From assembly GCF_053078305.1 (NCBI RefSeq), contig NZ_CP166879.1: a stretch of DNA of 64,000 bases. One strand, given 5' to 3'. The translations under genes and the position numbers were made by a program. Position 1 is the stretch's first letter; each line of letters begins with the position of its first letter. The notes under the pieces are model-generated. The model did no database searches and was not told the origin of the DNA. It was given only the letters and a program-made list of their open reading frames with translations. This document shows, one piece after another, positions 3,508-49,752 of this stretch.

Positions 3508-3751
3508 TCCAGCTGCAATATATTAGTAAAGCTTATTACTGAGTTTACGAATAATAAAAAAAGCAATATAAAATATCTCGATATTATTTTATTTATATTC
3601 ATGCGTCGCATATGAAAGTTTATTCATAACAGTAAATATCTCTCCATTCTTAGTGATCTACCTCACCTTTTAAACGCGCTTGCCGAATTTTGTTATTTAC
3701 TCTGACGAAAAATTGTCACGATACACGAAAGTTTTTCACAGGCGGCGACTC
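3508..3751 (+). promoter_or_regulatory. AT-rich promoter and regulatory region of the eut operon (expected EutR-dependent promoter)
   Basis: 244-bp AT-rich non-coding stretch immediately upstream of the first eut gene; exact promoter elements not mapped. Confidence 0.4.
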
Positions 3752-4087
3752 ATGGATAAAGAACGCATCATTCAGGAATTTGTGCCCGGCAAACAGGTCA
3801 CGCTGGCGCATCTCATCGCGCATCCCGGCGAGGAACTGGCGAAGAAAATCGGCGTTCCGGATGCGGGCGCAATTGGCATTATGACGCTAACTCCTGGCGA
3901 AACGGCGATGATCGCCGGTGATTTAGCATTGAAAGCCGCTGATGTGCATATCGGTTTTCTCGACCGCTTCAGTGGTGCATTGGTGATTTATGGCTCGGTG
4001 GGCGCAGTAGAAGAAGCGTTATCACAAACCGTCAGTGGCTTAGGTCGCTTATTAAATTATACGCTTTGTGAAATGACCAAAAGTTAA
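3752..4087 (+). CDS. eutS: ethanolamine microcompartment shell protein EutS (BMC domain)
   Basis: In frame of ORF 3680..4087; start placed at internal ATG 3752 ([15 protein letters not shown]...) giving 111 aa. Confidence 0.9.
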
Positions 4088-11235: not shown

Positions 11236-11417
<182 letters not shown>

Positions 11418-21511: not shown

Positions 21512-21608
21512 GCCGGATGCGGCGTGAACGCCTTATCCGGCCTACAAAATTTCGCAAATTCAATATATTGCAGGAAAAAGTAGGCCTGATAAGCGTAGCG
21601 CATCAGGC
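21512..21608. repeat. REP pair (BIME) downstream of yfeZ
   Basis: GCCGGATGCGGCGTGAACGCCTTATCCGGCCTAC (21512-21545) and inverted GTAGGCCTGATAAGCGTAGCGCATCAGGC (21580-21608). Confidence 0.85.
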
Positions 21609-35266: not shown

Positions 35267-35776
35267 TTATTTCTTGATGCGGATAACCGGGGTTTCACCC
35301 ACAGTCACGCTACCGGACAGTTTGATCAGTTCTTTGATTTCGTCCATGTTGGAGATAACAACCGGAGTCAGGGTAGACTTGGCTTTCTCTTCCAGCAGCG
35401 GCAGATCAAATTCAATGACAGTATCGCCAACTTTCACGCGCTGACCTTCTTCAGCAATACGCTTGAAGCCTTCGCCTTTCAGTTCAACGGTGTCGATACC
35501 GAAGTGGACGAACAGTTCAACGCCGCTATCAGATTCGATAGAGAATGCGTGGTTGGTTTCAAAGATTTTACCAATGGTGCCGTCTACAGGCGCGACCATT
35601 TTGTTACCCGTTGGTTTGATAGCAATACCATCACCAACGATTTTTTCCGCAAAAACGACATCCGGCACGTCTTCGATATTGACGATCTCGCCAGAGAGCG
35701 GAGCAATGATCTCAATAGTTCCGGTATCCTTCTTGTCGTCGGAAACCAGAGATTTCAGTTTATCGAACAAACCCAT
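35267..35776 (-). CDS. crr: PTS glucose-specific EIIA (EIIA-Glc)
   Basis: 169 aa [32 protein letters not shown]. Confidence 0.98.
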
Positions 35777-35816
35777 GATCTTCTCCTAAGCAGTAAATTG
35801 GGCCGCATCTCGTGGA

Positions 35817-37544
35817 TTAGCAGATTGTTTTTTCTTCAATGAACTTGTTAACCAGCGTCATTAACTCGTCCGTTGTCGGTTGAGCAAGAGCCTGCTCTGC
35901 TAACACCTTCGCATCTTCGAAGTTCGTGTTACGGATAATCTTCTTAATGCGCGGGATAGAAATGGCGCTCATAGAGAATTCGTCCAGACCCATCCCCAGC
36001 AACAGAAGTGTAGCACGTTCATCGCCAGCAAGCTCACCACACATGCCAGTCCATTTGCCTTCAGCATGAGAAGCATCAATAACTTGCTTGATCAAGTTCA
36101 GCACGGACGGTGACATTGGCTGGTAAAGGTGTGAAATCATATCATTACCACGGTCAACTGCCAGAGTGTACTGCGTTAAATCATTGGTGCCGATACTAAA
36201 GAAATCAACTTCTTTGGCTAAATGACGTGCAATTGTTGCGGCAGCCGGTGTTTCCACCATTACGCCGATTTCAATTGACTCGTCAAACGCTTTACCTTCG
36301 TCGCGCAGTTCCTGTTTGTAAATTTCGATCTCTTTGCGCAGTGCACGCACTTCTTCAACAGAGATGATCATCGGGAACATAATGCGCAATTTACCGAAAG
36401 CCGAGGCACGCAGGATAGCGCGGAGCTGATCGCGCAGGATCTCTTTACGATCCATCGCGATACGGATAGCGCGCCAGCCGAGGAACGGGTTCTCTTCTTT
36501 CGGGAAGTTCATGTATGGCAGCTCTTTGTCGCCGCCGATGTCCATGGTACGAACGATAACCGCCTGCGAGCCACACGCTTCAGCCACTGCTTTGTAAGCA
36601 GCAAACTGTTCTTCTTCAGTGGGCAGCGCGTCGCGGTCCATGAACAGGAACTCAGTACGATACAGACCAACGCCTTCAGCGCCGTTACGCTCTGCACCTT
36701 CAACGTCACGAACCGTACCAATGTTAGCGCATACTTCTACCTGGTGACCGTCCAGCGTAATAGCTGGCAGATCTTTCAGTTTAGCAAGCTCTGCTTTTTC
36801 AGAAGCCACTTGCTCCTGAACAGCGCGCATTTTATCAATAACTTCGTTGGTTGGATTGACGTAAACCTGATTATTTACGGCATCCAGAATCAGATAGTCG
36901 TCATTTTTCACCTGAGAGGTGACGCTACCGGTACCCACGATAGCAGGCAGTTCCAGAGAACGCGCCATGATAGAGGTGTGGGAAGTACGGCCACCCGCGT
37001 CGGTGATGAAACCCAGCACCTTCTTCAGGTTCAGCTGTGCGGTTTCGGACGGCGTCAGGTCAGCGGCAACCAGAATGACTTCATCCTGAATGGCGCTCAG
37101 GTCGATAATCTTCAGGCCCAGGATGTTGCGCAGCAGGCGCTTACCGATATCACGTACGTCAGCCGCACGTTCTTTCAGGTATTCATCATCCAGCTCTTCC
37201 AGGGCAGAAGCCTGACCTTCGATAACTTCATGAGCAGCTGCGTCAGCAGTCATGTGTTTATCTTTAATCAGGGCTATGATTTCCTGCTCCAGCTCCTCAT
37301 CTTCGAGCAGCATAATATGCCCTTCAAAGATGGCTTCTTTTTCTTCACCGAACGTTTCACCAGCTTTCGTTTTGATCGTTTCCAGCTGGGCTGATGCCTT
37401 GGCACGACCGCTCAGAAAACGTTCAACTTCCTGATCAACCTGGTCGGCAGAAATTTTTTTCCGGTCAATGACAATTTCGTCTTCTTTCAGAAGCAGAGCT
37501 TTACCGAAAGCGATACCCGGGGATGCTAAAATGCCTGAAATCAT
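35817..37544 (-). CDS. ptsI: PTS enzyme I
   Basis: 575 aa [19 protein letters not shown]. Confidence 0.98.
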
Positions 37545-37588
37545 AACCCTACCTTACTTGTGACTGATTTTTAAAAGAACCCGGGAAA

Positions 37589-37846
37589 TTACTCGAGTTC
37601 CGCCATCAGTTTAACCAGATGTTCAACCGCTTTCTGCTCGTCTTCGCCTTCTGCGGAGATAGTCACAACGGTACCTTGAGTCAGGCCCAGAGTCTGCAGT
37701 TTAAACAGGCTTTTCGCGCTGGCGCTTTTGCCGTTGGAAGTCACAGTAATTTCAGAAGTGAAGCCCTTAGCTTCTTTTACAAACTGGGCAGCAGGGCGGG
37801 TGTGCAGACCGTTCGGAGCGGTAATGGTAACTTCTTGCTGGAACAT
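37589..37846 (-). CDS. ptsH: phosphocarrier protein HPr
   Basis: 85 aa [22 protein letters not shown]. Confidence 0.98.
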
Positions 37847-38083
37847 TGTATTTCCCCAACTTATAGGTTTAGTGTTGTGGAACTAAAGTCTAGCCTGGCG
37901 GTTCGACTTTAGCCTGTATTGTTAGCGCCAGTTTTTAACAGACGCGACGCACGAAGAGCGCAATACAGTCCATTGCTGGCGGGTGTTGACCGCTGACGTT
38001 TCGTACGTCATTAAACATTATGCCGCTAAAGGAAGAATTGAACCAAATCATAAAATCGATTCAGCTTTGGCTTTTCCTGTAAC

Positions 38084-38107
38084 GATTAATTTCGCGCATC
38101 AAAATAA
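38084..38107 (-). promoter_or_regulatory. Mlc operator in the ptsH upstream (P0) region
   Basis: Minus-strand sequence TTATTTTGATGCGCGAAATTAATC matches the Mlc/NagC-type operator recalled for ptsHI P0. Confidence 0.55.
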
Positions 38108-38179
38108 TTAGTCTGGTTAAATACCAGTTCCGACAGGCTGAATCAATGCCAGGAGGGGCGAAAGTTTGAAGCAGGCCAC

Positions 38180-38207
38180 AAAAAAGCACCTAAAAAGGTG
38201 CTTTTTT
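38180..38207. terminator. intrinsic terminator downstream of cysK (bidirectional form)
   Basis: AAAAAAGCACC-TAAAAA-GGTGCTTTTTT. Confidence 0.8.
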
Positions 38208-38229: not shown

Positions 38230-39201
38230 TTACTGTTGCAATTCTTTCTCCGTGAAGAGATCGGCAAACAATGCGGTGCTTAAATAACGCTCACCCGATG
38301 ACGGTAGAATAACCACAATATTCTTGTTGGTAAAGCTTTCATCTTCTTGTAGTTTCAACGCCGCAGCAACAGCTGCTCCAGAAGAGATACCTGCAAGAAT
38401 ACCTTCTTCTTCCATCAGACGACGCGCGGTAGAAATCGCTTCTTCATTGGTTATGCCAATGACTTTATCGACCAGCTTGAGATCGAGGTTAGCCGGGATA
38501 AAACCAGCGCCAATACCCTGAATTTTATGCGGGCCAGGTTTAATCTCTTCACCTGCCAGCGCCTGGGCGATAACTGGAGAATCGGTTGGCTCAACGGCGA
38601 CAGAGATAAGATCGGTCTTACCTTTGGTGCCTTTAATGTAGCGGCTGACGCCAGTCAGCGTACCGCCAGTCCCAACGCCAGCAATAAATACATCAACCTG
38701 ACCGTCGGTATCTTCCCAGATCTCCGGACCGGTGGTTTTTTCGTGAATTTCAGGGTTTGCCGGATTGCTGAATTGTTGCAGCAGCAGGTATTTCTCTGGA
38801 TTGCTGGCGACAATTTCTTCTGCTTTTTGGATTGCGCCTTTCATGCCTTTAGCACCTTCGGTCAGCACCAGGTTTGCACCTAACGCTTTCAGCAGCTTGC
38901 GGCGTTCAATACTCATGGTTTCTGGCATGGTCAGGGTGAGTTTGTAACCGCGAGCGGCAGCGACATAGGCCAGTGCAATCCCGGTATTACCGCTGGTTGG
39001 TTCAACCAGTTCAACGCCTGGTTTCAGCACGCCGCGCTTTTCGGCATCCCAAATCATGTTGGCACCGATACGGCACTTAACGCTGAAGCTGGGGTTACGA
39101 GATTCCACCTTCGCCAGAATGCGTCCGTTACCGATGCGATTCAGGCGAACCAGCGGCGTGTGACCGATAGTCAGCGAGTTATCTTCAAAAATCTTACTCA
39201 T
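38230..39201 (-). CDS. cysK: cysteine synthase A (O-acetylserine sulfhydrylase A)
   Basis: 323 aa [26 protein letters not shown]. Confidence 0.98.
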
Positions 39202-49239: not shown

Positions 49240-49315
<76 letters not shown>

Positions 49316-49354
49316 AATTTTGCACCCAGCAAATTTGGTACGTAAACGCATCGT

Positions 49355-49430
<76 letters not shown>

Positions 49431-49469
49431 AATTTTGCACCCAGCAAATTTGGTACGTAAACGCATCGT

Positions 49470-49545
<76 letters not shown>

Positions 49546-49580: not shown

Positions 49581-49752
49581 GTCTCTGCTTTTTGCCGCTT
49601 TTGTAATACAGTCTACGTCCGGGTTAGCGCCGCCTGGTGAAAGCATCATTGGATGAAAAATCGGCAACAGGCTGGCCCTTGTTTGCTTCGCGATGCGAAT
49701 AAACTTATTATTTGTGTGCCTGAAAACCCCGATCAGTGAGAGTAGTGTACTC

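What the first reader, a model, noticed from the sequence alone, without database searches (positions are those of the whole stretch)
38084..38107. Mlc operator at ptsH P0
The minus-strand sequence TTATTTTGATGCGCGAAATTAATC in the ptsH upstream region matches the Mlc operator architecture known for ptsHI P0. This is a known element, recorded for completeness.
Basis: partly seen in the sequence, partly recalled or inferred. Interest (0 to 1): 0.15.

Follow-up and report, generated by a model that had tools for sequence, protein, structure and literature searches.

The report
Known Mlc operator at ptsH P0
This is the textbook binding site for the glucose-responsive repressor Mlc in front of the E. 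coli ptsHI-crr sugar-uptake operon; the sequence is really there, is far better than chance and is conserved across enteric bacteria, but it is already known.

Summary
It lies in the 383-bp cysK-ptsH intergenic region of an E. coli chromosome, which is identical to K-12 MG1655.

The site meets every published sequence rule for an Mlc operator: TT-N9-AA at positions ±5,6, AT-rich arms at ±7-11, and A/T rather than G/C at ±11. A matrix built from ten independent published NagC operators makes it the best hit in the 64-kb window, and 0 of 100 shuffles reach its score. The orthologous site is the best hit upstream of ptsH in all 80 Enterobacterales species sampled, with invariant arms flanked by unconserved DNA.

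It sits just downstream of a conserved TGn-TATTTA -10 element. A conserved CRP-like site lies 49.5 bp upstream of that hexamer. This places the operator at about +4 to +26 of promoter P0, where bound Mlc would occlude RNA polymerase.

The primary footprint papers were not readable here, and no P0 start site was found in the one TSS table that listed ptsH.

The parts
38086..38108 (-). 23-bp Mlc operator core ATTATTTTGATGCGCGAAATTAA. It is a quasi-palindrome centred on 38097, so strand matters little. TT is at -6,-5 and AA at +5,+6.
   Evidence: Top matrix hit of the window. Listed at ptsH in the FITBAR paper. Arms invariant in 80 species. Most conserved 23-mer of the aligned region.
38118..38126 (-). 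Inferred P0 extended -10 element TGgTATTTA (hexamer 38123..38118).
   Evidence: Read from the sequence. TGGTATTTA or TAGTATTTA occurs in 75 of 80 species. Block GGTATTTAAC is at least 95% conserved. Assignment to P0 is inferred, not measured.
38141..38146 (-). Inferred P0 -35 hexamer TTGATT, 17-bp spacer to the -10.
   Evidence: Read from the sequence. TTGATT or TTGCTT in 66 of 80 species at the same spacing. The simple sigma-70 consensus scan found no promoter here, as expected for a weak, activator-dependent promoter.
38109..38112 (-). Inferred P0 transcription start, 6-9 nt after the -10 hexamer and 61.5 bp from the CRP-site centre if at 38111.
   Evidence: Inference. No P0 start site is listed in the Kim et al. 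2012 TSS table.
38165..38180 (-). CRP-like site TGTGGcctgctTCAAA, centre 38172.5.
   Evidence: Two mismatches to TGTGA-N6-TCACA. Half-sites are conserved with a variable spacer in 80 of 80 species, and lie 49.5 bp from the -10 hexamer in 76 of 80.
38180..38207 (-). cysK terminator hairpin AAAAAAGCACC-loop-GGTGCTTTTTT. Its T-run abuts the CRP-like site and it bounds the ptsH control region.
   Evidence: Terminator scan. At least 95% conserved in the alignment.
38050..38065 (-). Cra/FruR-like site GCTGAATCGATTTTAT, 39.5 bp downstream of the operator centre. It is a separate regulator site and not part of the Mlc operator.
   Evidence: Left half matches the GCTGAAWCG consensus, which I wrote from memory. 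Present in 72 of 80 species. Cra repression of ptsHI is stated in PMC2759082 and PMC8085971.
38009..38009 (-). Mapped P1-type ptsH transcription start (MG1655 v2 coordinate 2531623, 163 nt upstream of the ATG). The operator centre is at -88 relative to it.
   Evidence: Table S1 of Kim et al. 2012, PMC3415461, with coordinate conversion from the ptsH ATG.
35267..37846 (-). Regulated operon ptsH (37846..37589), ptsI (37544..35817) and crr (35776..35267).
   Evidence: ORF list and RefSeq annotation of an identical region.

Best explanation
The 23-bp quasi-palindrome at 38086-38108 is the operator for the ROK-family repressor Mlc (DgsA) at the upstream promoter P0 of the ptsHI-crr operon. P0 is a weak, CRP-cAMP-activated promoter: -35 TTGATT, TGn-extended -10 TATTTA, and a CRP site centred near -61.5. 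The operator starts 9 bp after the -10 hexamer and covers roughly +4 to +26. That lies inside the DNA normally held by RNA polymerase, so bound Mlc blocks polymerase binding or open-complex formation at P0. The downstream P1-type promoters, about 90 bp away, would not be affected. When glucose is transported, dephosphorylated EIICB-Glc (PtsG) sequesters Mlc at the membrane. The operator is then vacated and P0 transcription of the general PTS proteins rises. Shown here: the sequence, its statistical distinctness, its fit to published operator rules, its conservation, and the conserved promoter and CRP geometry. Taken from the literature: that Mlc represses ptsHI and is sequestered by PtsG. Inferred: the exact P0 start and the occlusion mechanism.
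For: The exact sequence and gene context are confirmed and the intergenic region is identical to MG1655. The site is the best NagC/Mlc-type matrix hit in 64 kb, and 0 of 100 shuffles reach it. The FITBAR paper lists the same 23-mer at ptsH among the top genome-wide hits. It meets the rules TT/AA at +-5,6 and A/T at +-11 that mark Mlc rather than NagC sites (PMC4288165), and TT-9bp-AA with AT-rich +-7-11 (PMC1874608). It is 18/23 identical to the best hit upstream of mlc itself, and similar to the best hits upstream of ptsG (two), manX and malT. The orthologous site is the top hit in 80 of 80 Enterobacterales species; positions -10..-5 and +5..+8 are invariant and +-11 is A/T in 159 of 160 cases. 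Mean information is 1.70 bits per column, against 0.86 and 0.40 in the immediate flanks. The CRP-like site and the -10 element are conserved at a fixed 49.5-bp spacing in 76 of 80 species. The 61 bp around the site are at least 99% identical in 5413 of 5427 E. coli records. Literature: Mlc represses ptsHI and is sequestered by dephosphorylated EIIB-Glc. ptsHI expression peaks on glucose and lactose together with the other Mlc targets.
Against: No binding or expression experiment can be done here, and the primary footprint papers could not be read, so the match to the published footprint rests on my memory of an abstract. The Kim et al. 2012 TSS table lists three ptsH start sites but none at the inferred P0 position. 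P0 is therefore placed only by conserved motifs and geometry. The simple sigma-70 consensus scan finds no promoter in the region. The matrix was built from NagC sites, not Mlc sites, so the score alone does not distinguish the two paralogues. Only the +-11 rule and the literature do that.
Confidence: 0.93

Rival explanations
1. The site is primarily an operator for NagC, the N-acetylglucosamine repressor and paralogue of Mlc, whose operator logo is almost indistinguishable.
For: The site scores highest with a matrix built only from NagC operators. It was returned by a NagC genome scan in the FITBAR paper.
Against: High-affinity NagC sites carry G/C at +-11, whereas this site has A/A there, or T/T in the other register. 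That position is A/T in 159 of 160 cases across 80 species. [quoted passage not shown] The literature assigns ptsHI to Mlc.
Confidence: 0.03
2. It is a chance AT-rich quasi-palindrome or a generic promoter element (for example a -10 or UP-like sequence) with no specific repressor.
For: Symmetry is imperfect: 6 of 11 arm positions are complementary by my own count on the sequence. The region is AT-rich promoter DNA. A weaker overlapping TT-N9-AA match exists at 38103-38125.
Against: 0 of 100 shuffled windows reach the score. The arms are invariant in 80 species while the 9 bp upstream and 20 bp downstream are poorly conserved. The overlapping secondary match is not conserved.
Confidence: 0.02
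3. The conserved sequence acts at the RNA level, as a hairpin in the 5' leader of the P0 transcript.
For: The site would be transcribed from P0 if the start is near 38111, and it is a quasi-palindrome.
Against: The predicted fold is only -2.9 kcal/mol, with z = +0.33, and 118 of 200 shuffles fold at least as well. The conserved arms are invariant rather than covarying. No Rfam family matches here.
Confidence: 0.01

Closest known systems
Mlc operator of ptsHI P0 in E. coli K-12 (from my own knowledge: Plumbridge 1999 Mol Microbiol; Kim et al. 1999 JBC; Tanaka et al. 1999 Genes Cells; none readable here)
   Same: The whole 383-bp intergenic region is identical to MG1655. The same 23-mer is printed for ptsH in the FITBAR paper. 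The inferred position of about +4 to +26 agrees with the remembered '+1 to +25' footprint.
   Different: Nothing differs in sequence.
Best NagC-type matrix hits upstream of the other Mlc-regulon genes (ptsG P1 and P2, manX, malT, mlc), taken to be their Mlc operators; not checked against the published site list
   Same: All are 23-bp AT-rich-armed quasi-palindromes. TT-N9-AA falls at the +-5,6 positions in the scanned register for manX and mlc, and after a 1-bp register shift for the two ptsG hits and malT. The ptsH site is 18/23 identical to the mlc hit ATTATTTCGGAGCGCGAAAATAT.
   Different: The ptsH site scores higher on the shared matrix than the others (19.1 against 8.9-15.0 bits). It is a single site, whereas ptsG shows two hits.
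NagC operators (nagE-nagB, chbB, glmU, fimB, chiP and others)
   Same: Same length, same TT-N9-AA core and same CGAAA right arm. The logos are described as essentially indistinguishable.
   Different: High-affinity NagC sites have G/C at +-11; this site has A/T.

Membership tests
Mlc operator (ROK-family Mlc/NagC type) | 23-bp quasi-palindrome with invariant TT at -6,-5 and AA at +5,+6 (TT-9 bp-AA) | tested here: met
   ATTATTTTGATGCGCGAAATTAA has T,T at positions 6,7 and A,A at 17,18. The rule is from PMC4288165 and PMC1874608. These positions are invariant in 80 of 80 species.
Mlc operator (ROK-family Mlc/NagC type) | AT-rich arms at positions +-7 to +-11 with imperfect dyad symmetry | tested here: met
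   The left arm is ATTAT and the right arm ATTAA, all A/T. Six of 11 positions are symmetric by my own count on the sequence.
Mlc operator (ROK-family Mlc/NagC type) | A or T at +-11 (Mlc type), as opposed to G/C (high-affinity NagC type) | tested here: met
   A/A in the 38108..38086 register, T/T in the 38107..38085 register. A/T in 159 of 160 positions across 80 species.
Mlc operator (ROK-family Mlc/NagC type) | Overlaps the promoter or start-site region of a CRP-dependent glucose/PTS-related gene, so that binding excludes RNA polymerase | tested here: inconclusive
   The conserved TGnTATTTA and the CRP-like site at a fixed 49.5-bp spacing place the operator at about +4 to +26. However, the P0 start site was not found in the available TSS table and is inferred.
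Mlc operator (ROK-family Mlc/NagC type) | Direct protection or retardation by purified Mlc (footprint, EMSA) | not testable with these tools
   Published according to my own knowledge (Kim 1999; Plumbridge 1999; Tanaka 1999), but the papers are not held. PMC4288165 refers to six native Mlc sites without listing them in readable text.
Mlc operator (ROK-family Mlc/NagC type) | mlc-dependent repression relieved by glucose through PtsG sequestration of Mlc | not testable with these tools
   Stated for ptsHI in PMC1156936, PMC10100716 and PMC8085971. No expression data can be generated here.
Mlc operator (ROK-family Mlc/NagC type) | Evolutionary conservation as a discrete site upstream of the orthologous gene | tested here: met
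   It is the top matrix hit in 80 of 80 species from several Enterobacterales families. It is the most conserved 23-mer in the aligned 203 nt. Presence of mlc in those genomes was not checked.
NagC operator | G/C at +-11 in high-affinity sites; regulation of amino-sugar genes | tested here: not met
   A/T at +-11. The gene context is the general PTS operon, not an amino-sugar gene.

The most novel reading that the evidence does not exclude
The operator is more constrained than the Mlc logo alone requires. The central 9 bp, which the published rules do not constrain, still average 1.49 bits per column across 80 species, and the arms are completely invariant. That leaves room for a second conserved function on the same DNA: another factor sharing the site, or a role for the GC-rich centre in P0 promoter escape. 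Nothing here demonstrates this. The central bases may simply tune Mlc affinity.
Probability: 0.04. Interest if true: 0.3.

Novelty: already known. Interest (0 to 1): 0.06.

Why it matters
The site matters only as correct annotation. It links expression of the general PTS proteins HPr and Enzyme I to glucose availability through the Mlc-PtsG sequestration circuit. It is a useful positive control showing that the first-stage reader can recognise a real operator from sequence alone. The comparative data add a small refinement: the operator, the CRP site and the -10 element of P0 form a conserved module across Enterobacterales. The CRP-to-(-10) spacing is strictly fixed, but the promoter-to-operator spacing is loose (±2 bp), as expected for simple steric repression.

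Tried and rejected
1. I tried to read the primary papers and none is held: Plumbridge 2001 NAR, El Qaidi and Plumbridge 2008, and Kim 1999 JBC by DOI. Full-text searches for 'ptsHp0' and for 'pts P0' plus Mlc returned nothing.

2. I looked for a mapped P0 start site.
- Kim et al. 2012 Table S1 lists only starts at 163, 69 and 30 nt upstream of the ptsH ATG.
- The Cappable-seq and Mendoza-Vargas supplements held no ptsH entries; the stored copies may be incomplete, which I did not check.
- Thomason 2015 is not held.

3. The RNA-hairpin reading was rejected: -2.9 kcal/mol, z = +0.33.

4. A second, overlapping NagC/Mlc-like match at 38103-38125 (12.8 bits) was rejected as a site. Its right half falls in unconserved DNA, and the spacing between the -10 element and the operator varies from 6 to 10 bp between species.

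5. An alternative P0 with a -10 inside the operator (TATTTT at 38106..38101) was rejected. It has no -35 and would put the CRP site at -78.5, off the usual class I spacings. This is reasoning on the sequence.

6. The Cra-like matches at 38152-38137 and 38091-38076 (5 mismatches each) were dismissed as noise. Only 38065-38050 is conserved.

7. Reviews and systems papers gave no positional information.

Full report

The minus strand here carries these genes:
- cysK (39201..38230)
- a 383-bp intergenic region
- ptsH (37846..37589)
- ptsI (37544..35817)
- crr (35776..35267)

RefSeq annotation of an identical E. coli region gives the same gene names. The intergenic region has no mismatch to K-12 MG1655. 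It is at least 99% identical in 5417 of 5428 matching E. coli records. The 61 bp around the site are at least 99% identical in 5413 of 5427 records.

**Is it more than chance?** I built a symmetrised position matrix from ten published NagC operators, none of them from ptsH (FITBAR paper Table 1, PMC3098098). NagC is the paralogue of Mlc, and the two operator logos are described as essentially indistinguishable (PMC4288165).
- The best hit in the whole 64-kb window is 38086-38108, ATTATTTTGATGCGCGAAATTAA, at 18.2 bits. Without the ±11 positions it scores 20.2 bits.
- The runners-up score 16.2 and 15.2 bits.
- No position in 100 Markov-shuffled windows reached the site's score.
- The FITBAR paper prints this same 23-mer for ptsH among its top genome-wide hits.
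- A degenerate pattern hits only here, against 0.04 expected, but I wrote that pattern after seeing the site.

The operator register is therefore 38108..38086. The register 38107..38085 also satisfies the core rule, so a 1-bp ambiguity remains.

**Fit to the published operator rules.**
- PMC4288165 gives TT and AA at ±5,6 as the only invariant positions. It gives A/T at ±11 as the mark of Mlc sites, against G/C in high-affinity NagC sites.
- PMC1874608 gives TT-9 bp-AA with AT-rich ±7-11 and imperfect dyad symmetry.

The site meets all of these in either register.

With the same matrix I scanned upstream of the other Mlc-regulon genes in MG1655. The best hits are one each for manX, malT and mlc and two for ptsG. 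Together with ptsH this makes six, the number of native Mlc sites cited in PMC4288165. The ptsH site is 18/23 identical to the mlc hit. I could not check these five hits against the published list.

**Comparative evidence.** A scan of one genome per species with the HPr protein returned 80 Enterobacterales species. They include Escherichia, Salmonella, Klebsiella, Enterobacter, Hafnia, Serratia, Yersinia, Rahnella, Pectobacterium, Dickeya, Erwinia and Sodalis.
- In all 80, the best matrix hit in the 600 bp upstream of ptsH is the orthologous operator, wTTATTTyGa..gCgyrAAATTAw.
- Positions -10 to -5 and +5 to +8 are invariant.
- Position ±11 is A/T in 159 of 160 cases.
- In an alignment of 79 distinct sequences, the operator is the most conserved 23-mer of the 203 aligned columns. 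It averages 1.70-1.74 bits per column.
- The 9 bp upstream average 0.86 bits and the 20 bp downstream average 0.40 bits.

This is the signature of a protein-binding site, not of general promoter AT-richness.

**Promoter anatomy (inferred).**
- Nine bp upstream of the operator lies TGgTATTTA, an extended -10. TGGTATTTA or TAGTATTTA occurs in 75 of 80 species.
- TTGATT sits 17 bp further upstream.
- A CRP-like site, TGTGGcctgctTCAAA (38180..38165), has conserved half-sites and a variable spacer in 80 of 80 species.
- The CRP-site centre is 49.5 bp from the first base of the -10 hexamer in 76 of 80 species. That is exactly the geometry of a class I CRP site at -61.5.

This puts the P0 start near 38111 and the operator at about +4 to +26. 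That agrees with my recollection of the Kim et al. 1999 abstract (footprint 'around +1 to +25', Mlc inhibits polymerase binding at P0 and does not affect P1), but the paper could not be read here.

The spacing from the CRP-site centre to the operator centre varies from 72.5 to 76.5 bp between species. This fits steric occlusion rather than a helical-phase-dependent mechanism.

The simple sigma-70 scan finds no consensus promoter, as expected for an activator-dependent promoter.

The one TSS table that listed ptsH gives starts only at 163, 69 and 30 nt upstream of the ATG. The operator centre lies 88 bp upstream of the first of these, too far to repress it directly. The P0 start therefore remains unconfirmed here.

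**Mechanism.** Open-access papers state three things:
- Mlc represses ptsHI, ptsG, manXYZ, malT and mlc.
- Dephosphorylated EIIB-Glc sequesters Mlc during glucose uptake (PMC1156936; PMC1874608; PMC10100716).
- ptsHI expression peaks on glucose and lactose together with ptsG and manXYZ (PMC8085971).

Combined with the anatomy above, the best explanation is as follows. Without glucose, Mlc sits on +4..+26 of P0 and excludes RNA polymerase. With glucose, it is titrated to the membrane and the operator is vacated. CRP-cAMP is the activator P0 depends on, so P0 output reflects both signals.

**Rivals.**
- NagC as the main regulator is disfavoured by the A/T at ±11 and by the reported lack of cross-regulation.
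- Chance is excluded by the shuffles and the conservation.
- An RNA hairpin is excluded by a fold of -2.9 kcal/mol with z = +0.33, by invariant rather than covarying arms, and by no Rfam match at this position.
- A weaker overlapping match at 38103-38125 is not conserved.

**Verdict.** The element is already known, so interest is low. The only additions are the 1-2 bp register correction and the demonstration that the P0 module (CRP site, -10 element, operator) is conserved across Enterobacterales.

Noticed in passing
window 38050-38065 (minus strand): GCTGAATCGATTTTAT, a Cra/FruR-like half-palindrome 39.5 bp downstream of the Mlc operator centre, is conserved in 72 of 80 Enterobacterales species. 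It fits the reported Cra repression of ptsHI.
   Followed up: partly
window 38037-38052 (minus strand): A second CRP-like match, TATGATTTGGTTCAAT (3 mismatches), lies about 35 bp upstream of the mapped P1-type start at 38009. It falls in a conserved block.
   Followed up: no
window 3618-3640 and 3692-3714: Two NagC-type matrix hits with G/C at the ends: GATATTTACTGTTATGAATAAAC (16.2 bits) and GTTATTTACTCTGACGAAAAATT (12.0 bits). They are 74 bp apart in the maeB-eutS intergenic region, just upstream of the eutS start near 3753. The second is listed as a predicted NagC site in the FITBAR paper. A NagC link to the eut operon may be worth a look.
   Followed up: partly
window 49682-49704: Another NagC/Mlc-type matrix hit, GTTTATTCGCATCGCGAAGCAAA (15.6 bits), lies just after the tRNA-Ala cluster, toward the pdeA side by MG1655 gene order. 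It was not examined further.
   Followed up: no
window 49240-49545: Three tandem tRNA-Ala(GGC) genes at 115-bp spacing, where K-12 MG1655 has two (alaX, alaW). This is a copy-number difference in this strain.
   Followed up: yes
between window 3692 and 38086: The distance from the eutS-proximal site to the ptsH operator is 34.4 kb here, against 42.4 kb by MG1655 coordinates in the FITBAR table. The window strain therefore lacks about 8 kb present in K-12. From memory this is probably the CPZ-55 prophage in the eut operon; I did not check.
   Followed up: no
window 11288-11369 and 21546-21587: Rfam matches above gathering score to naRNA4 (65.3 bits) and ES036 (48.3 bits), both on the plus strand. 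Neither was examined further.
   Followed up: no
locus L083 (Candidatus Sodalis sp. SoCistrobi), upstream of ptsH: This is the only species of the 80 with a visibly degraded operator: ATTATTTCTTGGTATGAAATTGC, 13.9 bits, with C at +11. That would be consistent with relaxed selection in an insect symbiont. Whether mlc is intact there was not checked.
   Followed up: no
E. coli records outside the window: The cysK-ptsH intergenic region also matches 2-3 records typed as plasmids, for example NZ_CP098226.1 (50 kb). These may be misassigned chromosomal contigs or captured segments.
   Followed up: no
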